Of a stretch of DNA of 64,000 nt, positions 1,947-47,811 are shown piece by piece (position 1 is the first letter of the stretch; every line of letters begins with the position of its first letter). The notes under the pieces are model-generated. The model worked only from the letters and a program-made list of their open reading frames with translations. It made no database searches and was not told the DNA's origin. The position numbers and the translations under genes are program-made. Source of the DNA: Azolla caroliniana (lineage: Eukaryota > Plantae > Polypodiophyta); contig JBHGNT010000016.1 in NCBI GenBank assembly GCA_043228905.1, forward strand, positions 6,262,001 to 6,326,000, written 5' to 3'.

Positions 1947-2600
1947 CTCCCCCGTTGTCGTGAAGATTTCCGACGATAGTGAGAAAACCACGTTGTCATG
2001 GAAATCGGCGAGTACGTGTTAGATTTGAGCGGCACCACCAGGGTCTTGGACCGGGGAGGAGCACGTTTCCGGAAGGCCGAGTTCTTTGGAGCCTGTCGTG
2101 TTGTCGAGACGTTGGTTGGATCGGTTCTGAATGCGACCTAGGAACAACCGAACCGGATGGCAAATGAGAGAGAGTGAGAGACAAAGAGGCACACAATATG
2201 TGATTGTATTATTCAAGCTCAGAGTTACAAATGAATGGCAGCATTAACCAAGATGAACAATCCCACAAACTAGGTTAGAAAGCCTGTTATATACTAACTA
2301 GGCTAGGGCAACTGCCCTTTGACATATTTACATAATTGTTCTAAATCTAGTTTGTCCAAGGGACAATGTGAATATGGCCATTATATACGCATATTCGACA
2401 CTCCCCCGTTGTCGTGAAGATTTTCGACGATAGTGAGAAAACCACGTTGTCGCAGAAATCCACAGGCAGCACCACCAGGGTCTTGGACCGGGGAGGAGCA
2501 CGTTTCCGGAAGGCCGAGTTCTTCGAAGCCTGTCGTGTTGTCGAGATGTTGGTTGAATCGGTTCCAGATGCGACCTAGGAACAACCGAACCGGACGGCTC
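1706..2600. repeat. Tandem duplication, period about 454 bp, spanning the LTR-B / PPT / gypsy-LTR junction
   Basis: CATATTCGACACTCCCCCGTTGTCGTGAAGAT recurs at about 1936 and 2390; gypsy LTR starts at 1956 and 2410. Confidence 0.85.
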
Positions 2601-3880
2601 TGGACATGTTCCGGAAGAGGGTCACAATGCATAGAGGGAGAGCCAGGCAGAGCTCACATGTACGCGTACCCGTAGTCCCTTGGTAGTCATATGTACAAAA
2701 GGCCCAATAGATGTAAGTAGATACATTCACATGCATGACGATAAGTACGTGGACAATGGCCCGGTTCGACGCGCTCGACACACGCACCCACACACACACA
2801 CACACACACTTGGAAGAACAAACCCCTAAGACCCTGAACCAGACGCATGCACAAAGGACTCTCGGGATGGCGTCCCGAGACCCGACACTTAAACACACCT
2901 GACACACGCACCCGTAGAGAAGAACAGAAACACCGACGCATTTACACAGAAACACACACACGTTCTTATATATATTTGTACAAGGGACAGATAGAGACAG
3001 AGAGGGCGCCTACAACCCAGAACCAGTCAGGGAGCACATGGGGCTCGCCAGAGTGAGTGGAGTCTGCCGCCAAACCGCCAGTTGGGGAGCACTCGGGCTC
3101 GTCTACACGAGTGGGGATCTTGCACGGGAGAGAGAGAACTAAGGTCAGGAGCCTCTAAGCAGTTGAGCTCAACAAAACCAAAAACCCTAAAAGAGAAAGA
3201 GAAGAGAAGGAAAGAACTCCCGCAAAGGAACGAAAAATGACCTGAGTGAAAAACCTAGTAAACAAAACTAGGAACCCAAGAGAGGGAACCCATTTACAAG
3301 GGACCCTCCCTTCCTTTTATAGCACAAGGAGGGAGTGGCGTTACAATTTGGGATAAATATCCCCCATTTCGAGGGATACTCTGCCCAATTTCTCTACGCT
3401 ACACATGCAAGTTAGTGCACTTAAATGCACCAACTAAATATGTACAATCTTTACAAGAGGGAGTGCACATGGTGCACTCTGCCGATTTCTCTATCTCACC
3501 CGGTTTTCTCAATGCAGTCGGGAATCTTCACAACATCGTGGAACAGGCGAAGTCGGCGATGTGCAACATGTGCACATGTACATTACGAAATGTGTATAGG
3601 AATAAGAAGGGGAAAGGTGAAGGGTGCAAAGGGCGCCGATCGAGTTAGTGAAGAATAAATGTGATGTGTACATTCGCACACATGCACACGTATAGGGTAG
3701 TGGGGGAGTGTGGGAGTAAGGGGGGTTTAAATGTACTTCACCCATCAACACTCCGGAAATCAAGGAAAATATCTCCTTTCAAAAGGAGAAATATTTGATT
3801 GTGCTTTGTAATGTCCCTCCCTCCTTGAGCTATAAAAGGAGGGAGGGGTCTCTTGTAAAGGGTAGGACACAAGCCGGCCA
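2410..3880 (+). repeat. Partial LTR (U3 to TATA region) of the Trp-gypsy superfamily, interrupted by a solo LTR
   Basis: Starts TGTCGTGAAGA; CCTCCCTCCTTGAGCTATAAAAG at about 3816 is shared with the E1 LTRs; U5 end and PBS are missing. Confidence 0.65.
2448..3535 (-). mobile_element. Solo LTR of the Trp-gypsy superfamily
   Basis: TGTCGC...TCTTCACAACA termini; internal blocks homologous to E2 LTRs; flanks ACGT / TCGT (4-bp TSD, 1 mismatch). Confidence 0.7.
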
Positions 3881-4059
3881 GGTGAAGGCTGCAGATCGGG
3901 AAGCTAGCGATCGAGGTTGCGGAGAGAGACCGACAGGTTTCAGACAACGCTGCCCGAAACTCCGGACATTGGAGAATCAAGTGCAGGCGGCACTTGATCG
4001 ATCGAAGTCCAGATGCTTCTCATCAAACGTGCTTGGGGAGCGGTACCCCGAACGAGCGT

Positions 4060-6440: not shown

Positions 6441-7431
6441 TGTCGTGAAGATTTTCGGCAATAGTGTGAAAATCCCATAAAACGTACGAAATCGAGTATG
6501 AATCACGTAATACAATAATTGTGAAGATAACATTTTTAATATCTAAGTACAAAATGATGGAGGTTTCGAATGCACTTTATTACACGAGAAATGGACAACT
6601 AAATGTCAAGATATGAGGGTATAAAGTTTGTGAAAAGAAAAGAGAAAATTGTGAGATATCCCACATAGGCACGACAAATACGGCTCTCATCATATATAAG
6701 GTGGAGCAAAAGATATTATCTTTGTGTCTATGTGTGGAGCATAGAGAGTTCAAGGTAACTTGAACTAAGAGTGGAGGTGGCTAGCTACTCGTAAAGGGTT
6801 TTGGCCAACCAAAACCGAACCAGCGATGGAGCCGGTGATCCGACCGCAATCCTGCGAGGCACCGGTATCCGGCGTCGGCATCCGGCGACGGTATCCGGCG
6901 AACCGGCGTCCGACGACTAGATAAAATAAATATATAAATATATATACATATTTACATATACAAGGAGAGCAAGTATGGATTCGAACCTTGCACCTCCAAG
7001 TTAGGAGTCAATTGACTTACCATTAAGCCATGCTATTTAATTGAAATTATATTTCTATCATTGTACTTTTACATGTAAATTCTCATACATGAGAGCTAAA
7101 ATGAGTGACACGGTTAGCATGCACCACATGTAATACTTAAGCGCCAAATGGCAAACATGGAATTTATGCATGTCTTGTACCCTCACATGCATCATATGCA
7201 TGAGAGCATCTATAAAAGAGGGAAGGGGAAGGAGAAAAAACACGGTTTTTTTTATGAAAATTAAGAGGAAGAAATTCGTTATCAAATTGATTGTGTAATC
7301 TCAACTTCTCTCTTTCCCAATCTATCTTAAGTACTTTCTCGCCAAAGCTTGTATCGACTCTAAATCCTTATGGTCCAGAACCCCAGCGGTTCCGCCTCAC
7401 GATCCGCGCGTAGTGACGGATCTTCACGACA
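6441..7431 (+). mobile_element. Solo LTR (991 bp, AT-rich interior) of the Trp-gypsy superfamily, TSD GCGG
   Basis: TGTCGTGAAGAT...ATCTTCACGACA 12-bp inverted ends; GCGG on both sides; TATAAAAG at 7211; U5 motif CCCCAGCGGTTCCGCCTC. Confidence 0.85.
6965..7035 (-). other. tRNA-derived Pol III module (SINE-like head) inside the solo LTR
   Basis: On -: TGGCTTAATGG (A box) ... GGTTCGAATCC (B box) at tRNA spacing, then a TA-rich tail; no clean cloverleaf. Confidence 0.55.
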
Positions 7432-7527: not shown

Positions 7528-8391
7528 TGTCGTGAAGAATTTCGGCTAGAGGCGGAAACCGGGAAATATTGGCTACATCGACGGGGTGCAGCATGTCCGA
7601 TCACCCTTGTACATTTAGTGTGAATAGTAGGAGTCAAGATTGGGACAGAGAATCCCATGTAAGTTGGGATTTATCCCACATTGTAGCGCATCTCCCTCCT
7701 TGTTCTATAAAAGGAAGGGAGCGCCTCTTGTGAAAGGGTTGCCCATTTTGAGTTGCAAGGGTATACCATTTTGTGCTTCGATTTCTAAGGTTAGTGACAT
7801 TCCTTTTTTTTCTCTGCTCCTCCTTCTCGAGAACTCAAGAGGCAGCTATGGCGAGAAAGCTATTAGGTTAACTCTTCTTCTTTTATGCGTAGCCGGTTCG
7901 CGGCCGGGGTGGTGTCTCTCCCTGTTGTAGGTTGCTTCTGCTCAGCCTCCTGTGCAAGACCCCACTCGGTGCGATGAGCCCGAGAGCTCCCCGACGGCGG
8001 CTTGGCGGCAGATTGCCGTTGCGACCTAGCCTACCTTAGTCCGAGTCAGAGTAGGAGTTGTAACTCACTCTTGTAATCATATATATATATATATATATAT
8101 ATATACAGGGTTGTGCATATTTGTATCTTTGTCGGTGTTGGGTGCTTTCCCTTCCCTGTGTTTCCTGTACATAAGAGGTGTGCGTTGTGTCGGTGTTGTG
8201 CGCGTGTTCTCTCCCCCTCTTCCTCTCTCGCGTTTGGTAGCCACCGGTACGCGTCCGGAATCGCTCCGGTTCGTGCCACCACCAGTGCAGTCAAGACCGG
8301 AGAGAAGTCGGCTTCCTACGCTCCGTCACTCCCTAGTCCAAGACCCCCGTGGTCCCGGCCCTTCTATACGCACGCGCGTAACTTCGCAACA
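7528..8391 (+). repeat. 3' LTR of E0
   Basis: TGTCGTGAAGAATTTCGG...CGCGCGTAACTTCGCAACA; 5' part similar to E2 LTR. Confidence 0.85.
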
Positions 8392-9757
8392 CCGCTTCGA
8401 ATCAGTACCGTCAGTTTCCTTGTCTTTTCGGATGTGCCGACAATTCTTTTGGAAGTGTCTTGGCTTGCCGCAATAGAAGCAAGTATGCCTCCCTCTTGAC
8501 TTTGACCGTATCCCCGACTTTTCCCGGTTCTAGGGACTACGGTTCCTTTGTCTTCCGCGTTCCGATTCGGTAAGGAGCGCTTTGGAGTCGGAGATCGTAT
8601 CCTTGTCTTTCCGACGCGCCTCCTCATCTAGCAAGCTCGACTTGACTCTAGCTAGGGACAACTGCTTCCCTTCCTGCCTGGTATTGCCCAAAGTGACAAC
8701 CAACATCTTCCAGCTATTTGGGAGGGAACCGAGCAGGAGTAGTGCTAGTACCTCATCGGCAAGAGGTACTTCCAGTGACGTGGCTTGGTTTATAAGCCCC
8801 TGGAAGGCATTCATGTGCTCCACCATGCTGGAGCCATCTTGGTACTGGAACCTCACTAGCTTCCAGAATACTGAAACCCGATTAACGGCCTTTTTGTTCT
8901 GGAACATAATGCTGATCTTCTCCTAGAGCTCATGAGCCTTACTCTCCTCATTAAAATTGTTGTACAGGCTCATGTCGATGAAACATCGGATGTATGATGT
9001 TGTCTTCATGTGCATTACCTCCCACACCGTGGCGTCGATCTTATCTGGTCTCTTGTCCCTGAACTGAACCGGTAACCAAAGATCTTTAACCACAAGCATG
9101 TCCCTCATCTTTGACTTCCACACTGATTAGTTGGAGCCGGTGTGCTTGAACATGCCTTGCAACAAATCTTCCATTTTCTGTGTCATTTCGCTCTGATACT
9201 AGATTGATGCGAAATATGTGGAATATTACTCGGCCACAACCGAATCTCAGATCGTGTCGTTTCGAATCGAACACCGAGAATGGGAATGGAGGTGAATACA
9301 CGTACACACAGACAATATGAGAGAGGGTACACAATATGTTTATGTGGAAAACCCTAAATGGGAAAAACCACAGGAGTCCACAAACTCCAATTATCACTAT
9401 GTCGAGAGGAATACAACAAGTGAACACAGAGGCAACAACCTCTTGCTCATAATATTTGCCTAGCGGCGGTTACAACAGAGACTCGCTCTGTATCTCTCTC
9501 TCCCTCTCTCTTCCACTCTGTACAATAGTTACACTCAATAACTCTATACAACAAATAATGACAACACACCATATATCAAGAGTTTGCCCTAGGTTATATT
9601 TATACTAATATGACTTTCGGACTATTTACAAATATAGCCCCAATGGGCTCTCTGGAACATATTTACATATATGACTCGTCAACCGGTGAGGGGGTTCTCA
9701 CCGGGTCTTCCGTCGTCGGGTACTCATCTCCCATCCGGAGGGACCGAAATCCTAACA
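8392..9757 (-). mobile_element. gag: Copia family C (Tnt1/Tto1-like) 5' fragment: LTR 9205-9757, degenerate Met PBS, gag
   Basis: WKSKMRDMLVVKDLW and LALLLLGSLPNSW; zinc knuckle remnant; homologous to 60700-62163. Confidence 0.85.
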
Positions 9758-10430: not shown

Positions 10431-11222
10431 TAGGAGCCAAACGGACAGAGAGCCGGCCGAGAGTGCAGAACAACATGCAAACGTCTGACGCAGAAGCAAA
10501 GAAGAAATCAGAAGACAAGAAAGAAGAAGAGGAGGAGAAGAAGAAACGACGACGACGTCAACATGCATCAACAGAAAGAGGAAACACAGAGATGCGATGC
10601 ACGCAGAGATACCGCCAAAACAATGGAAGAAGGAGAAGTATAAGGAGAAAGGAGAAGGAAATGACAGACAAAGTTGAGAAGGAAGAAAGAAGAAAACAAA
10701 GCAGCGTTTCTGTGACAACAGAGATGGAAGAGATAGAGAAGGAGAAGAGAGAGAGAAGAGGCAAAAGAAGAAACAGAACCTAAGAAGGGCATCATCAAGA
10801 ATTCCAGAAGTTCGAGGGCATGGTGGAAATTTTCACAAAACTAGAGGGCAGTCGAAGAAATTTTTAAAACGTAAGGCTAGCTATTAAAATTTCAAAAAAG
10901 GGGTACGACATAGACTTTCAGAAACTCAATGGCACAAAAAACTCCTCACCACTCAACTAATGAAGAAATATATATATATGTATACACATACACCCACAAT
11001 CATTTTGAAACCCAAAAGACTTTACAACAGTGTACGAGCCGATTGGTGTGTGATCCAATCGTGCAATATGCTACCTGAACGAGAAGGTTCGTGTCAAGCT
11101 AGCTCTGATCGAAGTTATCGATCGTAGAGCAGTGTTCCGGTCGAGGGATTTCCAATCGTCCAGAGAAGACCGATGGAGTTTCCGGTCAACGAGCTTTTGG
11201 CATGGGCTTGTGGGTTCGATAT

Positions 11223-11650
11223 TGTCGCGGATTCGTGAGTACGTGTGGAAAAGGGACGGGACCACAGGGGTCTCGGACGAGGAAGAGATGGATGTCGGGA
11301 GACTAACTCTCTTCGGTCCCAGCTGCACCAGTTGTGGCGCAAACCGGAGCGATTCCGGACACATACCGGAGGCTACAAAACACGAAAGAGAGAGAGAGAG
11401 AGCATGTGCGCAACACCGACTCAACACACGCCTCTTATGTACAGGAAACAAAAAGAAAGAAATGCACCCGACACCAACAAAGACACAGATATGAACAACC
11501 TTTTATATGTGTATTTACAAGACAACATGATACATCTTCGGCTCCGAGCCAAACCTAGGTAGATCAGGTTACGGTAGTTGTCTGTTGCCAAGCCGCCGGT
11601 CAGGGAGCTCTTGGGCTCGTCTTGCACAGGAGACAGAGCATAAACAAAAC
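11223..11650 (-). repeat. Truncated Trp-gypsy LTR (U5/R part)
   Basis: Reverse complement aligns with 7930-8391; terminal TGTCGCGG at 11223. Confidence 0.7.
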
Positions 11651-11666
11651 CACTTGTACAAGTAGG

Positions 11667-13786: not shown

Positions 13787-14294
13787 TTTTATTCTTTGAT
13801 CTTGCCTCCATATGTGCACTCGATGATCTTCATCTCAAAGTGGTGTTGATGTTTCCGCACTGACGGTCCCAGTTCCCAACACTTAGGGGTATCCAAACAC
13901 ATCAACTAGTTTCACAACTAGCTTACACTCAAGCGGGAGGCGAGTGATGAGATAATGTGCATAAGATTCATCTTGTCAATGATGTGTTGGTTTAATGGTG
14001 CTAGAGGACATAAGAAGGCTATCAATAACAATATGCATGCTTCCACTAATATTATCAAAGAACCTTGACATGTTAGTGTTTAGGGAAATAATATCATATT
14101 CTTTAGTTTTAACAACCTTATAAGGTTTGGATATTTTCAATCTAAACCATAAATCAAATGTATGTAATAGACATGGTCATAATGTAATTTATGGGGAACT
14201 ACCCTTTATTAGGTACGAATAGTCAATGGCCAAGGATTATAACATGAAAGGAACCCTTTAGGGTTTCCAACTCGTATTGTAAAGAATCGTGTGT

Positions 14295-14312
14295 TATTTT
14301 GTGCAGCAGAAG

Positions 14313-14350
<38 letters not shown>

Positions 14351-14441
14351 GAAAATTATAGAGTAGACAGAAAAATAGAGAAAATTGTATTAACAATGGA
14401 AAACAACTAACAATGGAAAATTATTTTGTGCAGCAGAAGAG

Positions 14442-14487
<46 letters not shown>

Positions 14488-14572
14488 TATAGAGTAGATA
14501 GAAAAATAGAGAAAATTGTATTAACAATGGAAAACAACTAACAATGGAAAATTATTTTGTGCAGCAGAAGAG

Positions 14573-14630
<58 letters not shown>

Positions 14631-14690
14631 GAAAATTGCAGAGTAGACAGAAAAATAGAGAAAATTGTATTAACAATGGAAAACAACTAA
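14295..14690. repeat. Triplication of an approximately 125-140 bp unit containing (GT)n(GA)n inside the A2 3' LTR
   Basis: TTATTTTGTGCAGCAGAAGAGGTGTG...ATTAACAATGGAAAACAACTAACA occurs three times; once in the 5' LTR. Confidence 0.9.
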
Positions 14691-16019
14691 CAAAAACAAA
14701 GAAGGGGAGAAGGTTCTTATGTAGTGACCTTCTCTCTATGTTCTCTTACTACAACTACCTCCTAGGAAGGAGGTGGAGCCTTAACTACCTAGTAACTATG
14801 TGTCATATGACTTAACTTCTATGACACATTAGTTATGGTACAAAGTGGTGGTGGTGTGTCCACACACTAATGGTCTTAAGATGTGTTCACACCATAGGGA
14901 AGTTAAGTTTAATTCTCAACACGCCCCTTCAAACACAACTTCCAATCGATGGATAGTCTACTTGGGTCTCTGGGTCGGCTTAGGTATTCAGCTCCAATAG
15001 TCGACTCCGGCTTCAGCTGGTATAGCCCGCTCACTCGATTGGTGGCTTCTGACTCCCCCCTCAAGCTCGGTCGGTCAACAGTTGAGAGTCCTAGGTTCGT
15101 CATGAACTACCACAGCTTGTCGGCTCCTAGGGCCTTTGTGAAGATGTTGGTCATATGTAGGTTGGTGTTGATGTGTTGCAGGTCAACATCTCCAGTCAAG
15201 ACACGTTCTCGGATGAAGTGATATTGCACCTCAATGTGCTTAGTCTGAGCGTGGAAGACTGGGTTTCAAGCTAAGTGGATGTTGCTCATACTGTCGCAAT
15301 AAAGGAGAATAACATCCTTGATGGGAATGCCTTTTTAGCCAAATAATGTCACATGTTGCCACGGTTGCGCCCCTGTATTTGGTTTCTATGCTCGACAATT
15401 TTATTGTCAACTACTTTTTATTGCTCCATGATATGGCTCTGCTCCTTCGGGAGAAGACAAAACTAGAGGTTGATCTTTTGTCGGCCTTATAGCTGGCCCA
15501 ATCGGCATCGGTGTACCCGTTGAGTGAAATTGGTGTGGCCGATTTGTAGAGGATGTTGTAATTCATCGTCCCACTTACATATCTTAGTAATCGCTTAGCG
15601 CAATCCAGATAAATGTCACGAGGTTTCTACATAAACTGGCTAAGGAGGTGGACCGGGTAGCTGAGGTCAGGCTGAGTGGAACACAAGTACAACACGCTAG
15701 ATTACCCTACAAGAATGAATGATATATTAAGAATGCTCACAATTACAATATCGATCAATTGTCGGTATCATGCTCGCTTACCTCTCAATACAACCTTGCC
15801 TTCGAAAATAGTATATCTATTATTCCCTCTCTCTTTACTCTCTAAAACCACTCGGTATTTTTAGGTTTCCCTACTTATTTCTCAGAAGCATGGCGCATTT
15901 ACAGTCGTTTTCTTTGTTAGGTAGTTTTGCATCTTCTTTGTTTTTTGACTGATTCTACTTTTCCTGTGTTTGGTGTCTTGTTTCTTTTCACACTTCTAGT
16001 TTTCCTGACCGGCCAACAC

Positions 16020-18996: not shown

Positions 18997-19038
<42 letters not shown>

Positions 19039-21199: not shown

Positions 21200-21256
<57 letters not shown>

Positions 21257-35649: not shown

Positions 35650-37766
35650 TCTCGGTTTTCGGAACCGAGGGAGTCGCGGTTACGTTCGTGGTTCGGCCGT
35701 ACCGTCAGAAACTGGACCGAATGGCGCCCGTCTTGGCTTTTGACCCTCGCGTAGGCCGAACCGTTGTCCAGCACCTTGGTCTCCATCCGCGCCGCCGTGA
35801 TGTACAGCTCTCCCAGTATGACCGGATGCGAAGACGTCTCCTGCACGAAGAAGTGCTGGTCAATCTCGACGTCGCCGATCTTGACTCGCACATTCGGACA
35901 GGCCCCGTGCAGCTCCTCGGTGGCGCGCGTTGCCGCCCTTAGTTTCCACCCGTGCTTGGTGTTGATCGGCCATTTGCCCTTCTTATAGAAGTCCATGGAC
36001 ATCAAGTTGATCTCCGATCCGTGGTCCACCAAAGCTATCACCGGTTCCTGGACATCGCCGATCTTCACCGGGGTTTCCGTGGTCGCTCGGGCCCAGTGTG
36101 GTCTCGAATAGTGGCTTTCCGCCCACTCGTCTCCCAGCGCCATGTCGTCTAGGTGCGTCGTCCGCACTTCCACCGGTCTTTCCGGTTCTGTCTCTGTTGA
36201 CAGCCTCTTCCGTTTCACCAAGTCCACGATGGAGTCGTGGAACTCCTTCTTGGCGATTCCCAGCACCTCTCGTAACGACAGCTCCACCCTGATGTCGAGG
36301 ATCCGTTCCTCCAGGACCTTTCGTAAGTCCGTGGTCCTTTCTATCTCCGTCCCCAGACGGTACCCGCCCTTCTGGGGTTTATCTTTCGTACCGGCCCCGC
36401 CGGCTTCGTCCCGTCGTGGCCCGGACCGGTTCTCGTATCGTTGTGAGGGCCCGGTCGTCCCGGGTTTCCCCACCCGCTTCTCTTCTACCAGAGCCTCGTA
36501 GTTCTGGCAAGCGGCTTCCACGAAGCCCGTCCTCTCCTCGACCGGGTCGCTCCACCCGGTTATCTCCCGTACCCGTTTCTCCGCGCGGTCCGATTCCTCC
36601 CCTTTAAGCCTTGCACCGGCAAGGCCTCCCAGCATCGTCGGCCAGAATCCGGCTTTGCTTTCCCTTCGGGCCTCGCCGCCCCCGACTCGAATGCCGGCCG
36701 ACGCCGAGTAGTGGACGGTTTCCGCGTGTCGGGCCGCCGCCTCTTCCATCAACCTTTTCATACCGCCTCGCCCGTCGTTTCGGCTCAAGGCCCTTCGGGT
36801 GTCGCTGGCATGCACCCGCCCTTCCCACAGGTACACCACCCTGTCCCTTAGCGCCTCCGCGAAGTCGCCGCAGTCCTTCCGAATGTGGCCGACTTCATCG
36901 CACCACATGCACCTGTTTCCTGCCGCCGGCCGTCGGTCACGAGCCGGTTCGGCACCTTCCCTTCGGGCTTGCGCGATTTGGAGGTCCTTTACCGCCCTCG
37001 TCAATTCCTCCAGCGCCGCTCCTCCGGTTGAGCCTCTGACTACGCCGGTCGAAGCCGAACCGGTTTCCAACCACTCTCGGGTCTCTTCCTTTCGCACCTG
37101 TGGCGCTGGTTCGAACTTCCTTGCTGCGACCGAGCCCGACCCGGTTACCCCGTTATCCGCCCATTCTCGCCGTTTGTCGAAACGGCCACAGACCTTCTTG
37201 ACAGCCGCCCAGTCGGTAGTGAGCCCGTCTTCGGTTTCCAGCAAGAGGCCCACTTGCTCCCGATCCCGCTCGTCGACCGACTTGACAAACAGCAAGACCC
37301 GGCTCGTGTCCAGGATGGTTCGGTCGAGCGCCGAAAGGCGCGCAAAGTTTTCCTCGAACTCCCGGAGGAGTGCCGACGCGTTTCTTCCCTTCCCCGGGGA
37401 CTCCACCCATTCCATGAACCTTCGCTTCGAAAGCCGGAGCGCGTCATCCAGCCCGTATTTCTCTAGGAGCCGACCTTCGAACTCCTCCCAGGTACGGCTC
37501 TCCGCCCGCACCTCGAGCACCTCCGCATGGATGCTCGGCATTGCCACTCGGGGAAATCCGCCAAGACGCCTTTCTTCCGGAATGTCCCGCATCAACATTT
37601 CTGCACCGTAGGACGCCAGATACTTCGTGGCATCCCTCCCATCGAACCGGCCGATCGTGCCGACGACCGCCTCAATAGCTCTGTCGAGGGCACCGGTGCC
37701 CTCGCGCGCGTTTACAATCCGATCCACGGCCGAAGCCATGGCCTCTGCAAGATCCGACCCCCTCAT
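35640..37766 (-). CDS. gag: E4 Gag-protease polyprotein (first ATG at 37766; an in-frame GTG lies inside the PBS)
   Basis: Uninterrupted ORF; CX2CX4HX4C knuckle; ALVDHGSEINLM...VILGE aspartic protease. Confidence 0.95.
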   Translation of the reverse strand: MRGSDLAEAMASAVDRIVNAREGTGALDRAIEAVVGTIGRFDGRDATKYLASYGAEMLMRDIPEERRLGGFPRVAMPSIHAEVLEVRAESRTWEEFEGRLLEKYGLDDALRLSKRRFMEWVESPGKGRNASALLREFEENFARLSALDRTILDTSRVLLFVKSVDERDREQVGLLLETEDGLTTDWAAVKKVCGRFDKRREWADNGVTGSGSVAARKFEPAPQVRKEETREWLETGSASTGVVRGSTGGAALEELTRAVKDLQIAQARREGAEPARDRRPAAGNRCMWCDEVGHIRKDCGDFAEALRDRVVYLWEGRVHASDTRRALSRNDGRGGMKRLMEEAAARHAETVHYSASAGIRVGGGEARRESKAGFWPTMLGGLAGARLKGEESDRAEKRVREITGWSDPVEERTGFVEAACQNYEALVEEKRVGKPGTTGPSQRYENRSGPRRDEAGGAGTKDKPQKGGYRLGTEIERTTDLRKVLEERILDIRVELSLREVLGIAKKEFHDSIVDLVKRKRLSTETEPERPVEVRTTHLDDMALGDEWAESHYSRPHWARATTETPVKIGDVQEPVIALVDHGSEINLMSMDFYKKGKWPINTKHGWKLRAATRATEELHGACPNVRVKIGDVEIDQHFFVQETSSHPVILGELYITAARMETKVLDNGSAYARVKSQDGRHSVQFLTVRPNHERNRDSLGSENREDF

Positions 37767-37788
37767 CTTCTGCTCTTCTGCCGCCTCT

Positions 37789-37806
37789 TTCACGTCGGGT
37801 TCACCA
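37789..37806 (-). promoter_or_regulatory. Primer binding site complementary to tRNA-Trp(CCA)
   Basis: TGGTGAACCCGACGTGAA, 4 nt from the LTR; complementary to the plant cytosolic tRNA-Trp 3' end TTCACGTCGGGTTCACCA as recalled. Confidence 0.8.
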
Positions 37807-39259
37807 AAGATGTCTAGATATTACGCAAGTGCGTGTGGAAACGAGGCGGGACCGCGGGGGTCTCGAACCAAAGAGCAAGCGAGGGAGGATAAAGAGGGAG
37901 AACCGGCTACGCAGGACCGGGGTTTCACAGGGACACGGCCCTTCAGCACGGAGAACGCGAACGGACACCGACACAGACAGATGCGAATGACTAAATATGT
38001 ATATTAAAAAAAAAAATGGCTAGCACGACTACAACCCCCGGTGGGGCACAGGTTGGTTACAACCGAACAGGCCGGCGAACAGATGCCGATGCCTATTCGC
38101 TTCAACGCACAAAGGGGGGGTAGCAGGTCGGAGGTGCTGCCGGAAGCACTCGGGCGTTCCTCGAAACAGCGCGAGCCTCCTCGGAACCCTGCACAGAGAA
38201 GCGATGGAGCTCAAGAAGGAAGGAAACAGAGAGAGAAGCCTCCAGAAACGGTCCGACAGCACTTCCTCCTCTCTGCGCGATCCCCCCCTCAAACAGCTCT
38301 TTCCTGCTCCTTATATATCTCGACGAGCAGGCCGTCATGTCAGCTTTATCCCCTGTCCCTTTCGAACAGGGATCCGCTCCGTTCTTCACGCATACGCGTA
38401 GTTACGCCGCCGACTCGTGCTGTCCCTTAGCTCGCGCGCGCGACCGAAAAGACTGTTCGCGCGGTCTTTGTCTCCACTCGTGTTAGGGCCCGTTCCTGCC
38501 GATTACCCTCCTAACTCGCTTCTATGTTCGACTTGGAGCGTGCGGGCGTGAGGAACCGGTTCCCACGCCTCGGTCTGCCGATTCCGCTTATGGACGGTTT
38601 TCTTCACGACAGCGTGAAGAACCGGTTCCCACGCCTTGGTGCGCCGATTCCGCTTATGGACGGTTTTCTTCACGACAGCGCCGAGCGGGGTCTTGCGCAG
38701 GAGATGAGCTGAAGCAAACCCTAAGCGAACACAAAGGGGGAGAAGAAGAAGAAACTAACTCTAAACCTAACGGTATACCCTCTAATGCAAAATGGGCAAC
38801 CCTTTCACAAAGGGCATTCCCTTCCTTTTATAGAACAAGGACAGGGATGCGTTACAATGTGGGATAAACCCCCACTTACATGGGACCGTCTGTCCCGACT
38901 TGACTACTCTTCGGCGCCATAAAGGTGCCCTCGTTATTCACACTAAATGTACATGGGTGCTTACACACGCTGCACCCCGCCGATGTAGCCAATTTTTCCC
39001 GGTTTCCGCCTCTGGCCGAAATTCTTCACGACATCCGCCCCCACCTAACCGCACATCCACCGGTATGTGCCAAGTCCGGTTGAAGGGTGAGAGATTTCGG
39101 CTGGTGAGAAACCGGTCTTCCATGATCCGCATCCCGGCTCGCTACCGGTTTGACCCGTCGGCTTCGATTCTTCCTTCGCGCTTACCTCCCCGTAGGCTCG
39201 TTCGACCCGTCGATGGGTCCTCTATCACGATCTCCGTAGTACGCGTACTTCCGTTGGCC

Positions 39260-40170
39260 CTTGCTCGGCCGTATGAACGCCCCGCTCCCGTCGTATGCCC
39301 TTGTCGGCTCCTTCCGAAACCTCGTGTCGTCGGGTCCCGTTCCCTGCCACCACCAACCTTCTCTCTCGGTCTCATGTTGCCACATTGGCCGAACTGCCGG
39401 AGTCTCCGGATCGGTGTGAGGGTCCCATAGGACCGGACTCCGTTTCTATGCTTGCCGAAATTCAGGTGCCTTTTGTTTGAGTCCCTCCCGGACTCTCCTC
39501 GTGTCTTCCGCATAGCCAGGTCCCGTTTCCCGCCGCCACCTTCCTTCTCCCTCGGTCTTACGTTGCCACGTTGGCTGAACAACCGGGGTCTCCAGTTCGG
39601 TGTGGGGATCCCGTAGGACCGGACTTCCTTACGCCCTTCGGCCTTCGTCACCTCACCGCCACCGTCAGTATCTTGGTCTTACGTCAACCGTGTTGCCGAC
39701 TGCCGAAGTCTCTAGAACCGGTGTGAAGGATCCTCCGTAGACCGCCCACCCGTAGCCCCTTTGCCTTCGTCACCTCGCCGCCACCGTCAGTATCTTGGTC
39801 TTACGTCGACCGCGTTGCCGACTGCCGAAGTCTCTAGAACCGGTGTGAAGGATCCTCCGTGGGCCTCTGATTTGTCTTCTCGACCTTGTCCCGGGTCGTC
39901 CTTTTCCGCATGCCGAGAGGGTGTTTTGTTCCGCACCCTCTCCCGTGGTACCGACGTACCGTGTCCTCAGCCTCTTCGTAGGCCAGCTCTCTTCCTCCCT
40001 CCCGGAATGGTCATCCGGGAGTCCGCTCCGCCCGGTTCTCGCTCGGGTCCGTTCGTCATTCTCCGGATTGCCGAGTCCCGTTCTCCTGTCGCCACCGATC
40101 TCTCTTATAGGACTCACGCCGGCACTCGGGCCGGCAGCCGGATCGGTGTAAGGAACTCCATAGGACCGGC
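39260..40170 (-). repeat. E2 3' internal array of degenerate GC-rich units, including a near-exact 122-bp tandem pair
   Basis: CCTTCGTCACCTC(A/G)CCGCCACCGTCAGTATCTTGG at 39642 and 39764; same unit family as 4060-6200. Confidence 0.75.
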
Positions 40171-40268
40171 TTTCATTCTCCTTCCAACTCTCGACCTTCG
40201 CCCGGTCGGTCTTTCTCCCCATGTAAAAGAGGGCAACTCGTCCCGCACCCCCTTCCGTATCATCACTT

Positions 40269-41681
40269 TCACGCCGAATCCGGCCCCGATCGAACGATCC
40301 ACGACCGAATCACGTTCCACTCGTATCGGAATGCCGATCTCCTCGTGCCGCGTCCGTTCTCGGCCTCCTCACAAGCCATTTCCCATCCATCTTCGCTGGC
40401 ATCGTGCCAGGACTCCTCGGTATCGCCATCCATCTCCTCGGTCTTACATGGGCATACAGGCCCGAATGCCGAGTTCTCCGGAATCGGGTCCGTGGGCTTT
40501 CGTCCGTTCCTTCCCCGTATCCTCTCGTCGGTGATTCTTGGCCTTTCGCCGCCGCCTTCCTCCGCTTGGGACTCACGTGGGCACTCGGGCCCGACTGCCA
40601 TCGTCTCGGGAGCAAGTGTGGGAAGACACAAAGAATCGCCCGTCCGTTTTACGCCCTTGTCCATAGCCACCGACTCTTCGTGTTCGGCGGTCGTCTTCTT
40701 ACCGATCGCGCAAGCCCCGTCTGGGCTTGCTTCTCCAATGACCGGGATCTCGGGCTGACACGCCCGAAACCGCCGGTCCCAACGTTCCAGTTCCGCGATC
40801 TGTACCTCGGCCTCGTCCTTGGCCGTTCTATCTCCGCAAGTCGAGAGGGCGTTTCGTTCCGCACCCTCTCCCGTGGTACCGTCGTACCGATCTTCCGCCG
40901 TCGCGTGGGGCAAGTCCGTCTTCTCAATCTCGGCTTGTGGCCTCCGTCTTTCCTCTTCCTCGAGCATCGCCTTGAGAGCTGCGTACGCCTCCGCAATCCT
41001 GGCCCCAACGCCGACCCTTGCCGACTCTCTTTGTCGTTCGGCCTCTTTCCGCTGTGATGGCACGCTGTCGCGCCCCTTTCTCTTAGCCTTCTCGGCTCGC
41101 TCATCATCTAGCCGTTGGCACACCCTTCCGACCTTCGACCAGTCCTCCGTAAGCCCATTCGCTCCATCATCTTCTTCGAGCTCAATCCCGATGGCCTCTC
41201 GTTCCGCTCGGTCGATCGACCTGACGAACAATAGGACCTTGTCCGCCCCCACCAAACCTTGTTCCCGCTCCGGGAGCCGAGCAAGCCGCCGCTCGAACTC
41301 TCGAAACGCCTTGGCAGCGCCTCGGTGGGTCTTCGACGATGCTACCCACTGGTCGAAGTCGTGCCATCCCCAGCTCTTCCACCGTCCTCCATATGCCTTC
41401 AGGAGCACCTCTTCGAAGGCCTCCCACAAACTATGAGCCTCAAGGAGCTCCTTTATTTCCGCATGCATCCGGACAGCCACGACCCGACAGAAGAACTCCA
41501 GCCTTAATGCCTCGTCTACGCCACGCTCCTCCATTTCCGCGTTGTCCCCGTTGAAACGGCCGACTCTTTCGACCACTCGCTCAGCCACTTGTTGCGCTGC
41601 TTCTCGCCTCATCACCACTCGTGCCGACTCCAACACCACTTCAGTCACCATCTCCGCAAGGTCGTCGTCTTCCAACTCCAT
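40269..41681 (-). CDS. gag: E2 Gag-like protein (470 aa): N-half homologous to E4 Gag, unrelated charged C-half, no knuckle or protease
   Basis: VGRFNGDNA, FREFERRLARL, KVLLFVRSID, GLTEDWSKVGRVC align with E4 IGRFDGRDA, LREFEENFARL, RVLLFVKSVD, GLTTDWAAVKKVC. Confidence 0.75.
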   Translation of the reverse strand: MELEDDDLAEMVTEVVLESARVVMRREAAQQVAERVVERVGRFNGDNAEMEERGVDEALRLEFFCRVVAVRMHAEIKELLEAHSLWEAFEEVLLKAYGGRWKSWGWHDFDQWVASSKTHRGAAKAFREFERRLARLPEREQGLVGADKVLLFVRSIDRAEREAIGIELEEDDGANGLTEDWSKVGRVCQRLDDERAEKAKRKGRDSVPSQRKEAERQRESARVGVGARIAEAYAALKAMLEEEERRRPQAEIEKTDLPHATAEDRYDGTTGEGAERNALSTCGDRTAKDEAEVQIAELERWDRRFRACQPEIPVIGEASPDGACAIGKKTTAEHEESVAMDKGVKRTGDSLCLPTLAPETMAVGPECPRESQAEEGGGERPRITDERIRGRNGRKPTDPIPENSAFGPVCPCKTEEMDGDTEESWHDASEDGWEMACEEAENGRGTRRSAFRYEWNVIRSWIVRSGPDSA

Positions 41682-41845
41682 CCTCCCTTTCCGCCTTTCA
41701 TGTCGGGTTCATCAAAGATGTCGCGTTGTTACGCGCGTGCGTGGAGAAAGGCGGGACCATGGGGGTCTTGGACTAGGGAGTAATGGAGCGTAGGAAGTCG
41801 TGCTTCACCGTCTCCGGGGCATCCCAGAAGCACACCGGAAGCAAC

Positions 41846-41884
<39 letters not shown>

Positions 41885-42029
41885 TTTAACACCGACTCAC
41901 GCACACACACTCACACACACACACACACACACAGGCCAACCCGACTCACACCCTTAAGTACAGGAAATGCAGGAAGGGGGAAGCACCCGACACCAACGAA
42001 GACGCGAATATACACAGATAGACGCAAAC

Positions 42030-42065
<36 letters not shown>

Positions 42066-42512
42066 AAGAATACATTCCCGGCGTCGAGCCGACCCGAGGT
42101 AGGTTACAGTAGTCGTCAGCTGCCAAGCCGCCGGTCGGGGAGCTCACGGGCTCGTCGCGTCGAGCGGGGTCTTGCGCAGGAGATGAGTTGAAGCAAACCC
42201 TAAGCGAACACGAAGGGGGAGAAGAAGAAGAAACTAACTCTAAACCTAATGGTATACCCTCTAATGCAAAATGGGCAACCCTTTCACAAAGGGCGTTCCC
42301 TTCCTTTTATAGAACAAGGACAGGGATGCGTTACAATGTGGGATAAACCCCCACTTACATGGGACCGTCTGTCCCGACTTGACTACTCTTCAGCGCCATA
42401 AAGGCGCCCTCGTTATTCACACTAAATGTACATGGGTGCTTACACACGTTGCACCCCGCCGATGTAGCCAATTTTTCCCGGTTTCCGCCTCTGGCCGAAA
42501 TTCTTCACGACA

Positions 42513-45474
42513 CCGGTTCACCGACATAACGCTACGAGAGCTCAAGGTCGGTGGGGATGGCTTTCTACTGCCGGCGGAGGAGAACAGGTTTCGGAGAATG
42601 CTCGGAAGGCATGGGAAAGCCTTCGCGTTCTCGCCGGAGGTGATCGGGTGCGTGGACCTGACGATCGTCGAACCGATGGTGATCTTCACGGTATCGCATA
42701 TACCGTGGAATCTCAAACCGATTCCGGTGCCAAGAGCTCACATCCCGAAGTTGATGGAGCTTCTGAAGCAAAAGGTGGAGATGGGCATCCTCGAACCGTC
42801 GAGTGCCCCGTATTCGAATCGGTGGTTTACGGTGCCGAAGAAGAACGACACGTTGCGCTTCATTCAGGACCTGCAACCAGTCAACAAGGTGACCATCCGT
42901 AACACAGGAATCGAACCAACCATAGACGAGTTCGCGGAGGCCTTCGCTGGAAGGTCGATTTACTCTATCGGTGATCTGTACTCGAGGTACGATCAGTTCC
43001 AACTAGCCGTGGAGAGCAGAGACATTACGACAATGCGGACTCCTCTCGGCCTAGTGTGGATGTGTACCCTACCACAAGGAGGGACAAACTCGGTGGCTAA
43101 TATGGTGAACGCGATGAACAAAGTGCTCAGGGATTGTATCCCGGACATCACCATGCCATTCTTAGACGACATCCCGATCAGGGGATGCCCAGTGGAGGAA
43201 AAGGACGAGACAATGAGACCGGACGAATGTCGGAATTTCGTGGTGACTCGCATCGATGACTGCGAGAAGGTGCTGCAGAGACTAGAAGGCGCGAGGCTCA
43301 CCTTCTCCGGGGAAAAATTGGCCTTCAGGCAATCAGAGATCATGGTTGTCGGGCACCTATGCGGACCATACGGTCGGAAACCGTCTCCGGCCAAGGTGGA
43401 AGCCGTCTTCGCGATGAAGCATGACTGCAATTCGGTTACGGAGGTTCGGAGATTCTTGGGAGCATGCGCGTTCTACCATATCTGGATCCCGCATTACGCC
43501 CACGTCGCGGAGCCGCTGTATGGGTTGCTGAAGAAAGGGCGTAAATTCGAGGGGGGAGACGAGCATACGAAGTCAGTCCGAAAGATGAAGGAAGCACTTG
43601 CCACGGCACCGGCGCTCCGAAAGGCTGCCTACGGCAAAGACACTCCAATTTACGTAACCGTCGACACGAATCCGACCGGGATCGAATGGGTGATCAACCA
43701 AGAGGATGACGTTGGCACGAGGTTCCCCATGCGGTTCGGCGCAAAGGTCCTCAGTAAGCGAAAGCGAGGATACGCCCAGGTTAAACGCGAACTCTGGGGT
43801 ATTGTTTCGGCGGTGAAGGCCGATAAAGACTATTTTATCAGGACAGAGGCAATAATCAAGATGGACTACTTGCTGATTCTCGGCATGGTTTCCGGATGCG
43901 CGACGCCGGACCTAGCAATGCTCCGGTGGATAGCGTACATTAAGTCCTTGAACCCGGAGATATGGCACATCTCCGGAAAGGATAACGCCATGGCCAACAT
44001 GCTTCCGAGAGCGAGGTTCAACGACGAAGACGGCATAGTTTCGGATGACGAAGAAGTCGGCGAGGACTTCTTCAGGTCGGCTAACGTAACGACGAGGAAA
44101 AGGGACACTCTGGCGCTTAACGAATTTAAACGGGGAATGGCTCCAAATCGAGAGGTTCCTATGGACGATGACGCCAGACGCAACATGGACGAGAGAAGAG
44201 GCGAGCCGGGTACGGAAGAAGGCGTACCGATTCTTCCTGCGGGACTGGTGCATATGGAGGCACCCAAAGAAGAGAAACGGCATCCCGCTCCAAGTAGTGG
44301 CAAAGAAAGAAGAACATGAGGAACTACTGGCGGCATTTCACGAGAGTCCCTAGGCCGGGCACCGTGGAACATGGGCCACGTTCGAGAAACTGAAGGAGAA
44401 GTACTGGTGGCCGGGGTTGTACCAGGATGTGCATCGGTTCGTAACAACTTGTGAAAGTTGTCAGATGCACTCCGTACTCCGACATCGGGACGAGCTACAC
44501 CCGACTTACCTGCCTGCGGTCCATTTCAAGTGGATGGTGGACTTGGTGACGATGTCGATGTGAATAGGACAGATGCGATACCTGGTGCTTGCGCGGGAAG
44601 ACTTAACGAACCAGGTGGAAGGTCATGCACTGCAAAACAAGACAACCGCGGCGGTATGCCGGTTCCTGATCGAAGAGGTAGTGTGTCGGTACGGGTGCAT
44701 CAGGAGGATCGTGGCGGACCGAGGAGAGTTGGATGAGCGGGAAGCTGAGGAGTTGTTCGACCGGCTAGGCGTCAAACTCTCCCTCACTACGGAGTACAAT
44801 CCGGAGGCGAACGGGAAGGTAGAACGTGGGCACGGGCCGATAGTAAAGGCGTTGGTGCGTGCATGCAGAGGGCAGGTCGGGAATTGGCCGCGGCTCCTTC
44901 CTTACGCACTATGGGCGGACCGAACTACGCACAGTTCGGTGACCGGGTTCATGTCGGCAGAGCTTATGTACGGACAGAGGCCGATCATGCCAATGGAGCG
45001 AACCATCTCCTCATGGACCACGGTGGACTGGAGAGATGAGATGAGCCGGGAGAAGCTGCTAGCGGGACGGATTCGACAGCTTGAGCAAAGGCCGGAGGAT
45101 GTGGAACAAGCCACGGAGAAGCTTCGGTTGGCAAGGTTGAGGAACAAAGGGTGGTTTGACCGGACTCACCGGGTGTGACCGAAGAAAATCAAGGAAGGCG
45201 ATTGGGTCCTAGTGTATGACAGCAACCTCGCAACCAACACAAGGCAACTCGGAAGTTTGCAAGGAGGTGGTTCGGGCCTTACATGGTGACAGGCGCCAAC
45301 GAAAATGGGACCTACCATCTTGCGGAGCTCGACGGTGCGAGGATGGCAATACCGGTAGTAGGGAAGAGGGTCAAAGTGTTTAAGAAACGACACGAGTGCG
45401 AGCCGGATCTGGAAAGCATGGACGGCGACGACAGACGGTCCGAGGCGGATGACGATCCGGAAGACGAGGAGTAA
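42513..45474 (+). pseudogene. pol: E1 pol RT-RNaseH-integrase, frameshifted
   Basis: LPQGGTNS, PFLDDIPI, TVDTNPTGI, HHCC remnant, VADRGE, GKVERGHGPI, WFGPY. Confidence 0.9.
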
Positions 45475-46129
45475 AGCATGGACCGGTTTTCTCCACCAAG
45501 AGCCCAATTTTGGCGCATACGCGATTAGGTGGGCGCGGATGTCGTGAAGAAAACCGTCCCTAGGCGGAATCCGAGTTTAGCGTGTGTAAACTGGCTCTTA
45601 CACGCGAGCACACTTTTCGTTGTATGGTAAGTAGGTAGGTACAAGTCGGCTGAGGTGAAATCCTAGGTAGCACGCATTCAATAGGGAGAGAATCGAGGTG
45701 TATCTCTGTCCGAATGGACAGAGAATTAATGTGATGTAACGGATGATAACGGCCTCCCTCCTTGAGCTATAAAAGAGAAGGAGAGGAATGAAAAAGGGAT
45801 AGTGCGTAAGGGAGGAGGAAGTGTTGCAGGACTGGGTGTCGAGCTCTCTCTTCTCCTCCGATCGTCGGTCTCTATGGGGTCGGGAGTTCGCTGCCTCTGC
45901 TTCGTGGACAGCCCGTGTGCTTCCAGCAGAGGCTCTCCCCTTTTTTTTTTGTTTCTTTGAGTCGGGTGTGTTCTGTCGGTGTGCGTGAGTAGGATCCCCG
46001 TGTCGGGTCCATCGCCGCTTGCCGGTTGTAATCGTCAGAGTTTGCAATCTCTGAATATTGTAATCTATTGTTACTGTAATTAAGTGTGTCGTTGGTCTCT
46101 CTTTCCTTCTCCCTGTTGCGTGTCTGCAT

Positions 46130-46199
<70 letters not shown>

Positions 46200-47811
46200 A
46201 GTTCAAGGCCCCTGTGGTCCCGCCTCTTTCTGCACGCACGCGCGTAACAACGCGACAACGGAAACAACATCATCTCCAATGCTATCAAGCACCCATGTTA
46301 CACTTTTACCCAATATGGGAAGTAAGTCAATCAAGAATACATATTGTTCGCCCGACAGTCGATTATTGTGCGTAACCGACCAATACGTCGAACGTTCCGA
46401 TCCGAACGTTCTATCAAGATGATTGTGGTAGAAGGATGGATAGTTGTACTAATCACTAATTAAGACTTGATATCTGCTTAACTATGATAGACTACTATAT
46501 CTTAATATAATAACTTAGTAGGCATAGCAATTTGGAATCGACATTGAGAACAGTACTACACAGAGAGACCGTTGACACAAAATAGTATCAGTTCGATTTT
46601 CATTGACGATTTTTCTCAAGATCATTTGTAGTGTTTTGTTTGTCGATTATGCCAACCCATTGGCCTGTGGGTAGTATGGAGTACTTCGTTTGTGTACTAC
46701 TACATAATAAGTAGATAATTCATGTACAATTTTATTTGTAAAATGTGTACCCTAATCACTTACTAATTCGATTGGACAACCAAATCAACACCATATGTAC
46801 TCATAAAGGAATTTGGCTTTCGACGTTTCCGTGTTATCCCAAAGAGATTTTGCTTCTACCCATTTAGTACAGTAGTCGGAAGCCACTATAATATAACGAC
46901 TTCCAGTTTGCGCAAATGCGGGTTTGAATGGTCCAACAAAGTCGAGACCCCATTTCTGAAATGGTTCAAAAGGCAACACCGGCTGATGAGGCATTCTATC
47001 CTTTTCAGTTGGTTGAACGGTCCGCTGACACAGATCACATTGTCGACAATATTTGGTCGCATCCTTTGATGTAGTTGGCCACCACAGCCCGCTACTCCAT
47101 ATTTTCCTTGTTGTCGTTTCTCCGGCATAATAACCGCCAACAATACCGCAATGGGCTTCTCGCAAAACTACTTCCTTCTCATATTGCCGAACCGTGTGCC
47201 ATCATATGTCATCGGCTCCCTTATGGTATAACGTCTCGTTGAGGAATAAAAAAATTTGACTTCTTACCACGAGCCTTTTTCTTTCATCCAGTGGCATGCC
47301 TTCTCATGGCAATCTCATACTTAAGAAGATCATCATTTCTGAGATCCATAAATCTGCCTGATCATCTTCCATCTCGGTTGTGGCCATTGTGTCTACTCTA
47401 AAAAGTTGAGCGTCTGGAAAATCATCTTGTACTCCTATACCCAACTCCCCTGATTCTAGGTGACTTAGATAATCAGCGACCACATGCTGCACCCCTGGTC
47501 GAAGCATTATGTCAAATTCAAACTATTGCAGTAATAATGTCCATCTGGCTAATTTTCCTATCAATTCCTACTTAGACACTAAATACAATAATGTCGAATG
47601 GTGAACATGAAATGTGAATCTCCGACCCAATAGGTACTGTCAGAATTTGTTGATGTTGTAAATCATCCCGAGAGCCTCGCGTTCAGTTGTTGAGTAATTT
47701 CTTTCAGCCGTTGATAGTTTTCGACCCACGTAGTAAACTGGATTGTACCATTTAGGGTTCGACAATTGCATTAGTGAACTTCTGATTGTCACCTCAGGCG
47801 CATCGACGAAG

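What the first reader, a model, noticed from the sequence alone, without database searches (positions are those of the whole stretch)
1952..46261. A gypsy superfamily that inserts at CpG: all readable 4-bp target sites are N-CG-N
Seen: two-sided TSDs ACGG (E1), CCGG (E2), GCGC (E3), GCGT (E4), GCGG (solo LTR 6441) and ACGT/TCGT (solo LTR 2448); one-sided flanks CCGT (1952, duplicated at 2406) and CCGC (8392). All 8 have CG in the centre, including E1, which landed in AT-rich DNA. One further LTR end (11223) is flanked by ATAT but may face its own internal region. Known: most plant LTR elements make 5-bp TSDs with weak preference (Copia A2 here has CGTAT); CG-type 4-bp targeting is described for Drosophila ZAM and Tirant. 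Inference: a chromodomain-less integrase reads CpG, possibly methylated, which steers insertions into earlier CpG-rich copies.
Basis: partly seen in the sequence, partly recalled or inferred. Interest (0 to 1): 0.85.

Follow-up and report, generated by a model that had tools for sequence, protein, structure and literature searches.

The report
Phygy-type retrotransposons insert at CpG
Thousands of copies of these jumping genes, in what is likely a fern genome, sit in four-base target sites centred on CG, a habit already reported for the moss Phygy lineage to which they likely belong; their integrase likely reads the CG sequence itself, and a need for methylation is untested.

Summary
All six two-sided target-site duplications (TSDs) in the window are 4 bp with a central CG. 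Genome-wide, 1357 of 1539 host-facing LTR starts of the E1/E3/E4 family and 1881 of 2295 of two sister families follow CG-N, against 3.4% background. All 36 perfect duplications among 46 paired elements are NCGN; none is 5 bp. Most resolved CA/TG exceptions keep CG at the other end, so they are likely later decay. Neumann et al. 2019 list this for the moss Phygy clade: 4-bp NCGN, tRNA-Trp primer, no extra domain. The window's elements match on each point; a tree with Phygy references could not be built. Ginger1 transposons target CCGG/CCGT. This scan earlier noted NCGN sites in a likely fungal genome and Phygy in this one. New here: a likely fern host, an extended palindromic preference (C, A>C>G, CG, T>G>C, G), and candidate integrase contacts. 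Targets lie in repeats no more often than random CpGs (29 of 44 against 270 of 400), so CpG density may be enough to explain the nesting. Methylation sensing is unsupported, not excluded. New member of a known kind.

The parts
20606..46257 (+). E1, outermost gypsy element (LTRs 20606-21314 and 45540-46257, 3.5% apart); TSD ACGG at 20602-20605 and 46258-46261; flanks 35% GC
23983..42512 (-). E2, nested in E1's pol; gag-like ORF only (40269-41708), likely non-autonomous; TSD CCGG at 23979-23982 and 42513-42516; LTRs 2.3% apart
24399..38677 (-). E3, nested in E2's 3' LTR; TSD GCGC at 24395-24398 and 38678-38681; LTRs 1.0% apart
31289..38611 (-). E4, nested in E3's 5' LTR; LTRs 37811-38611 and 31289-32089, 0.9% apart; TSD GCGT at 31285-31288 and 38612-38615
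35640..37820 (-). E4 gag-protease ORF (726 aa stop to stop; DUF4100 hit below its curated cut-off E but at 29 bits)
32161..35679 (-). E4 pol ORF in an overlapping frame: RT, RNase H, integrase; no chromodomain and no second RNase H hit
32164..33354 (-). E4 integrase: H2C2 zinc finger, D87/D146/E181 catalytic triad, invariant Glu149 at the site of PFV Ala188, SH3-like C-terminal domain with GPY motif, acidic tail
37789..37806 (-). E4 primer-binding site of the tRNA-Trp(CCA) type (coordinates approximate)
32090..32106 (-). E4 polypurine tract, ending GGA next to the 3' LTR
6441..7431 (+). Solo LTR of a sister family whose LTR ends form a 12-bp inverted repeat; TSD GCGG at 6437-6440 and 7432-7435; inserted just upstream of an older element's polypurine tract
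2448..3535 (-). Solo LTR with TSD ACGT (2444-2447) / TCGT (3536-3539), inserted 38 bp inside the LTR that starts at 2410
1952..2409 (+). One-sided flank CCGT at 1952-1955 and 2406-2409 before LTR starts 1956 and 2410; the two are one event copied in a 454-bp tandem duplication
7528..8395 (+). 3' LTR (7528-8391) of an older E2-like element with one-sided flank CCGC at 8392-8395
11219..11660 (-). Truncated LTR end at 11223 flanked by ATAT; target or primer-site origin unresolved
14278..19472 (.). Copia control element with 5-bp TSD CGTAT

Best explanation
These are Ty3/gypsy LTR retrotransposons, likely of the Phygy lineage, whose copies sit in 4-bp target duplications centred on CG, likely because the integrase itself selects that CG. 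Shown: the 4-bp NCGN duplication in thousands of copies of three families, a symmetric extended preference (C, then A>C>G, CG, T>G>C, then G; T nearly excluded at the first TSD base), a tRNA-Trp primer site, and no chromodomain. Inferred: a two-fold symmetric intasome cuts with a 4-bp stagger and kinks the target at the central step, as PFV does. That favours pyrimidine-purine steps, and base contacts then narrow the choice to CG. Candidates are the invariant Glu149 at the PFV Ala188 site and a conserved loop before the GPY motif; neither is tested. Nesting likely follows without a targeting domain, because the elements are CpG-rich and hold about twice their share of targets. After insertion the duplicated CG likely becomes methylated and decays to TG or CA.
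For: Genome-wide 1357 of 1539 and 1881 of 2295 host-facing LTR starts have CG at the TSD centre; background is 3.4%. 36 of 36 perfect TSDs are NCGN and 0 of 46 are 5 bp. 97 of the 182 exceptions are CA (50) or TG (47); of 40 fetched, 17 could be resolved and 14 keep CG at the other end. TA, the most flexible step by established knowledge, did not occur in 87 half-sites. First TSD base A45/C24/G16/T3 against 24/26/17/33% background, P=5e-11. Phygy table: 4 bp 100% NCGN, tRNA-Trp 81%, no extra domain. PBS is a perfect 18-nt match in 38 of 46 elements. PFV integrase is the closest solved relative; 4-bp retroviral sites favour a central YR step (PMC4422553). Glu149 is invariant in 62 of 62 aligned relatives. 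Targets are in detectable repeats 29 of 44 against 270 of 400 random CpGs. LTR-to-LTR transitions: CG 3.8%, CHG 4.8%, CHH 1.0%.
Against: No Phygy reference sequence could be obtained (the paper's FASTA is too large to read), so membership rests on features and on kinship with Riccia elements, not on a tree with Phygy. Elements are shorter (median 7.0 kb, 4.2-8.4) than the Phygy range of 7.7-10.0 kb. 17 of 44 targets lie inside the family against 21.5% expected from CpG share (P about 0.055), which leaves room for extra targeting. Two resolved sites have an identical TG-centred TSD (L142, L144). 23 of 40 exception loci and 34 of 80 sampled loci could not be resolved. The residue assignments come from alignment and a monomer model (pTM 0.58), without DNA. 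The repeat test uses a library of about 0.3% of the genome and sees only insertions that survived selection.
Confidence: 0.78

Rival explanations
1. The integrase reads methylated CpG, directly or through the altered bendability of 5mCpG, and so steers new copies into silenced DNA without a chromodomain.
For: The host appears to methylate CG and CHG in these elements. TSD CGs decay symmetrically, CA 50 and TG 47. There is a modest excess of targets inside the family (17 of 44 against 21.5%). Two identical TG-centred TSDs would fit thymine mimicking 5mC. A 1992 title on CpG methylation and retroviral integration was seen in a reference list only.
Against: Targets are in repeats no more often than random CpGs (29/44 against 270/400). 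Local CpG density around targets matches CpG-weighted background (35 against 32 per 600 bp, P=0.23). Decay shows methylation after insertion, not before. ZAM integrase binds CGCGCG oligonucleotides in vitro, in a fly that lacks CpG methylation (recalled). No methyl-binding domain hit in Pfam.
Confidence: 0.14
2. A host protein bound to CpG or to G-box-like CACGTG sites tethers the intasome, perhaps through the acidic C-terminal tail, and sets the position.
For: The extended preference resembles CACGTG (C at -1 in 45 of 88 symmetrised sites). An acidic tail is conserved across relatives. Ty3, a tethered integrase, is among the closest solved structures.
Against: Only 2 of 44 sites are CACGTG, and 31 different hexamers occur. 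A bound factor would cover its site rather than centre the cut on it (inference). The symmetric motif fits readout by a dimeric intasome.
Confidence: 0.05
3. Artefact: misplaced LTR boundaries, or insertion into CpG-rich neighbourhoods.
For: The LTR ends themselves contain CG (TGTCG...CGACA). Flanks average 49% GC.
Against: 5' and 3' LTR ends are fixed by the PBS and PPT. First and last TSD bases vary between copies and match across each element. Local CG is only 5.8%. AT-rich sites also have CG (E1). The Copia control has a 5-bp TSD.
Confidence: 0.01

Closest known systems
Phygy clade, non-chromovirus Ty3/gypsy (Neumann et al. 2019, PMC6317226; seen: passages and the supplementary lineage table)
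   Same: 4-bp NCGN TSD, tRNA-Trp PBS, no chromodomain or extra domain, coding sequence fills the internal region.
   Different: Described from the moss Physcomitrella patens (186 elements); the label is also used in a liverwort genome paper (PMC12885004, passages). Here the host is likely a fern, the copies number in the thousands and are shorter (median 7.0 kb), and the motif is resolved beyond NCGN.
Ginger1 DNA transposons (Bao et al. 2010, PMC2836005; seen: passages)
   Same: Gypsy-like integrase with GPY/F motif, TGT termini, 4-bp TSD CCGG (75%) or CCGT/ACGG (24%).
   Different: DNA transposons with terminal inverted repeats and no RT, in animals. Here ACGT is the commonest site and the elements are LTR retrotransposons.
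Prototype foamy virus and other 4-bp-TSD retroviral intasomes (Serrao et al. 2015, PMC4422553; seen: passages)
   Same: 4-bp stagger, palindromic preference, central YR step, T disfavoured at the first TSD base; closest solved integrase.
   Different: Their YR preference is weak (about 63% above random). Here it is near-absolute for CG, and the Ala188 site holds an invariant Glu.
Drosophila ZAM and Tirant (PMC2527525, PMC5408687, PMC3276498; seen: passages)
   Same: Sequence-specific gypsy integration at CG-containing palindromes; ZAM integrase binds its target in vitro.
   Different: Target is given as CGCG or CGCGCg, an alternating repeat, not NCGN with free outer bases; a different clade.
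TatI clade (same REXdb table)
   Same: 4-bp TSD and tRNA-Trp PBS.
   Different: TatI always carries an additional RNase H, not found here; no NCGN preference is listed.

Membership tests
Ty3/gypsy LTR retrotransposon | LTRs TG...CA, PBS, PPT, domain order RT-RH-INT | tested here: met
Phygy | 4-bp TSD | tested here: met
   36 identical and 8 near-identical of 46; 0 of 46 at 3, 5 or 6 bp
Phygy | NCGN target preference | tested here: met
   36 of 36 perfect TSDs; 1357/1539 and 1881/2295 genome-wide
Phygy | tRNA-Trp primer-binding site | tested here: met
   38 of 46 perfect 18-nt matches, 8 with one change; host tRNA-Trp(CCA) called at 3 of 3 loci
Phygy | No chromodomain, no additional RNase H, no extra ORF; coding region fills the internal part | tested here: met
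   Pfam on E4 pol; acidic tails in relatives; 5660 bp coding span against 5721 bp internal
Phygy | Length 7.7-10.0 kb (mean 8.6 kb), descriptive | tested here: inconclusive
   median 7.0 kb, range 4.2-8.4 kb in 46 elements; the fetch window excluded longer ones, and the paper calls size a weak criterion
Phygy | Monophyly with P. patens Phygy in RT/RH/INT trees (the primary criterion) | not testable with these tools
   Reference FASTA unreadable. The RT tree groups the window's elements with Riccia proteins (70-73% identity) apart from 11 other own-genome RT rows (21-30%), support 100/100, but holds no Phygy row
Chromovirus (Tcn1, Galadriel and others) | Chromodomain at the integrase C-terminus | tested here: not met
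Tat (TatI) | Additional RNase H domain | tested here: not met
   only the RT-linked RNase H hits at residues 528-657
Ginger1 | Terminal inverted repeats around a transposase, no RT | tested here: not met
   RT present; the 6441 unit with inverted ends is an LTR, seen 6 times before a PBS and 12 times after a PPT among 25 loci

The most novel reading that the evidence does not exclude
This integrase lineage reads 5-methyl-CpG directly at the centre of its target, a chromodomain-free way to aim at silenced DNA, shared from mosses and liverworts to ferns and perhaps with fungal relatives.
Probability: 0.14. Interest if true: 0.8.

Novelty: new member of a known kind. Interest (0 to 1): 0.3.

Why it matters
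NCGN targeting by Phygy is recorded in one sentence and one table row of Neumann et al. 2019. In the searches made here I found no mechanistic follow-up; the library lacks most subscription papers. This genome offers more than 3,800 readable half-sites, a defined extended motif and candidate contact residues, so the question of how a gypsy integrase reaches near-absolute dinucleotide specificity becomes easy to test. It extends the lineage to a likely fern. It also shows that heavy self-nesting can arise from CpG density with no targeting domain. If methylation were read, it would be a new link between DNA methylation and insertion choice.

Tried and rejected
5-bp TSD after boundary correction: rejected, 0 of 46. 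Local composition: rejected, 5.8% local and 3.4% background CG. The 6441-7431 unit as a MITE or Ginger-like DNA transposon because of its inverted ends: rejected, it occurs as 5' LTR, 3' LTR and solo LTR (6, 12 and 7 of 25). CA/TG as regular second-choice targets: mostly rejected, 14 of 17 resolved have CG at the other end. Strict G-box targeting: rejected, 2 of 44. Horizontal transfer from liverworts: considered because the named pol relatives were all Riccia, but not needed, since Ceratopteris integrases at 55-56% appear. Cluster look-up for species names gave none. Metagenome relatives (80 loci kept, 65 examined) are mostly collapsed contigs; only 2 secure host flanks could be read, both NCGN. 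The P. patens RLG paper did not link RLG families to Phygy or give TSDs in the passages seen. GingerRoot (6-bp TSD) and the truffle paper were not relevant. The integrase model and fold search confirmed a PFV/Ty3-like fold but cannot show DNA contacts. No bisulfite or read data were used. No complex prediction was run.
Full report
Observation. The window holds a four-deep nest of gypsy elements: E1 contains E2, E2's 3' LTR contains E3, and E3's 5' LTR contains E4. Older LTR pieces lie at 1956-11660. None of E1-E4 extends to 5 bp. The flanks at 1952 and 2406 are one event in a 454-bp tandem duplication. LTR divergence falls from outside to inside, 3.5, 2.3, 1.0 and 0.9%, as nesting predicts. 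A Copia element at 14278-19472 has a 5-bp TSD. The ATAT beside 11223 could not be assigned.

Genome-wide test. The exact 20-nt start of the E1/E3/E4 LTR occurs 2701 times in the 523-Mb genome. Of these, 1162 follow GGA, the end of the polypurine tract, and are 3' LTRs. Of the other 1539, 1357 (88%) follow CG-N, 50 follow CA-N and 47 follow TG-N; 85 were not examined and probably include mutated tracts. A second pattern covering the E2-type and 6441-type LTRs gives 3447 starts, 1152 after GGA and 1881 of the remaining 2295 (82%) after CG-N. CG is 3.4% of dinucleotides in 40 evenly spaced 10-kb stretches of contig C1.

Paired elements. I fetched the first 80 of the 100 listed tract-flanked LTRs (of 1162), a choice blind to the TSD. 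Fifty paired with a 5' LTR; 4 were dropped for unresolved ends. Of 46, 36 have an identical 4-bp TSD, all NCGN; 8 differ by one base; 2 do not match; none matches at 3, 5 or 6 bp. CG is 5.8% of flank dinucleotides. The motif is symmetric. Over 44 sites read on both strands, the first TSD base is A45, C24, G16, T3 (background 24, 26, 17, 33%; P=5e-11). Position -1 is C in 45 of 88 (background 22%) and position -2 is C in 5 of 88 (background 24%). Among 25 loci of the 6441 family, 5 of 7 solo LTRs have identical NCGN TSDs and the other 2 keep CG on one side; 11 of 12 3' flanks and 5 of 6 5' flanks have CG.

Exceptions. I fetched 20 of the 50 CA loci (one early row skipped) and 20 of the 47 TG loci (three TGA rows skipped as likely mutated tracts). 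Seventeen could be resolved: 14 have CG at the other end, one has TG on one side and CA on the other, and two have identical TG-centred TSDs. Most resolved exceptions are therefore likely C-to-T decay after insertion. This fits LTR-to-LTR transition rates of 3.8% at CG, 4.8% at CHG and 1.0% at CHH, which indicate CG and CHG methylation of the copies (inference; the count assigns each transition to the C or G allele).

What the elements are. E4 has gag-protease and an overlapping pol with RT, RNase H and integrase, and no chromodomain or second RNase H. The primer site matches the host tRNA-Trp(CCA) over 18 nt in 38 of 46 elements. Neumann et al. 2019 (PMC6317226; passages and supplementary table seen) state that Phygy elements alone among plant lineages prefer NCGN, and tabulate 186 elements with 4-bp TSDs (100%), tRNA-Trp primers (81%) and no extra domain. 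Their per-element table and protein FASTA could not be read and bear on membership. Named pol relatives are Riccia proteins at 48-64% identity; two Ceratopteris integrases at 55-56% appear among 120 listed hits. An RT tree of 53 rows puts the window's elements and the Riccia rows in one clade, apart from 11 other own-genome RT rows; it holds no Phygy reference. The best named hits of one host PPR gene are mostly from ferns, at 30-50% identity, so the host is likely a fern; this is weak, single-gene evidence. Metagenome relatives with 60-95% integrase identity share the primer site, tract and termini, and the two secure host flanks are NCGN.

Mechanism. PFV and Ty3 integrases are the closest solved relatives by sequence and fold. 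Retroviral intasomes with 4-bp TSDs kink the target at its central step, prefer YR there and avoid T at the first base; PFV Ala188 and Arg329 touch target bases (PMC4422553, passages). The same geometry likely applies here, but flexibility alone does not explain CG over CA, TG and TA, so base readout is inferred. The PFV Ala188 position aligns with Glu149, invariant in 62 of 62 relatives, in a D-R-G-E motif; a conserved loop (about residues 314-324) precedes the GPY motif. That this loop corresponds to PFV's Arg329 loop is recalled, not from a call. The model (pLDDT 80, pTM 0.58) has no DNA. Ginger1 transposons, with a gypsy-like integrase, target CCGG, CCGT and ACGG (PMC2836005, passages), which shows that this enzyme class can do it.

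Methylation and nesting. The family covers 10% of background bases but 21.5% of CpGs (bootstrap 8-36%). Seventeen of 44 targets lie inside it, P about 0.055. Targets lie in any detectable repeat in 29 of 44 cases against 270 of 400 random CpGs. Local CpG count is 35 against 32 for CpG-weighted and 20 for base-weighted background. Insertion in proportion to CpG density is therefore enough to give most of the nesting. A methylation requirement would predict more repeat targets than seen. The test is limited by a small repeat library, by selection on surviving copies and by possible gene-body methylation, so the question stays open.

Earlier notes of this scan. One note on this genome also names Phygy and a likely fern (e1-10618240). 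One on a likely fungal genome reports NCGN TSDs and pointed me to Ginger1 (e1-10582392); I checked the paper, not that genome.

Verdict. The feature is real, strong and genome-wide, and it matches a published property of the Phygy clade. It adds a likely new host group, a larger sample, an extended motif and testable contacts. Interest 0.3; new member of a known kind. Papers: PMC6317226 passages and supplements; PMC2836005, PMC4422553, PMC2527525, PMC5408687, PMC3276498, PMC6911290, PMC12885004, PMC7466625, PMC6839031 and PMC12581995 passages only; all others search listings only.

Noticed in passing
window 6441-7431; L196-L220: This family's LTR ends form a 12-bp perfect inverted repeat, so a solo LTR looks like a MITE. 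Its primer site lies 8 nt from the LTR, against 3-5 nt in the sister families.
   Followed up: yes
window 39034-41718 (E2 internal): E2 carries only a diverged gag-like ORF (479 aa, 31-37% to E1/E3/E4 gag) and no pol, yet has the same NCGN TSD: likely a non-autonomous partner moved in trans. Many sister-family LTR pairs are only 4-5 kb apart.
   Followed up: partly
window 35640-35679: gag-protease and pol of E4 overlap by about 40 nt in different frames, which suggests a translational frameshift after the protease.
   Followed up: no
G000:C8:17801960-17818962 and C16:4997139-5087205: tRNA-Trp-like 3' halves occur in a tandem array of 14 at about 1.2-kb spacing on C8 and a cluster of 10 on C16; 42 matches genome-wide, only 3 checked with ARAGORN.
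   Followed up: no
window 1705-2598: 454-bp tandem duplication that spans a host flank, an LTR start and the start of a nested LTR.
   Followed up: partly
P0120 (distant relative): A relative at 41% pol identity carries a PHD finger after the integrase where the window's lineage has an acidic tail.
   Followed up: no
L139 (G000:C2:19425760-19435500): TSD reads ATGT on one side and ACAT on the other: opposite-strand decay of one ACGT target.
   Followed up: yes
window 14294-14725 and 16468-16860: 131-bp tandem repeats inside the Copia element.
   Followed up: no
window 47810-61506: Two degenerate Copia-type elements on the minus strand, 71-76% alike, with a related Copia piece at 8391-9726.
   Followed up: no
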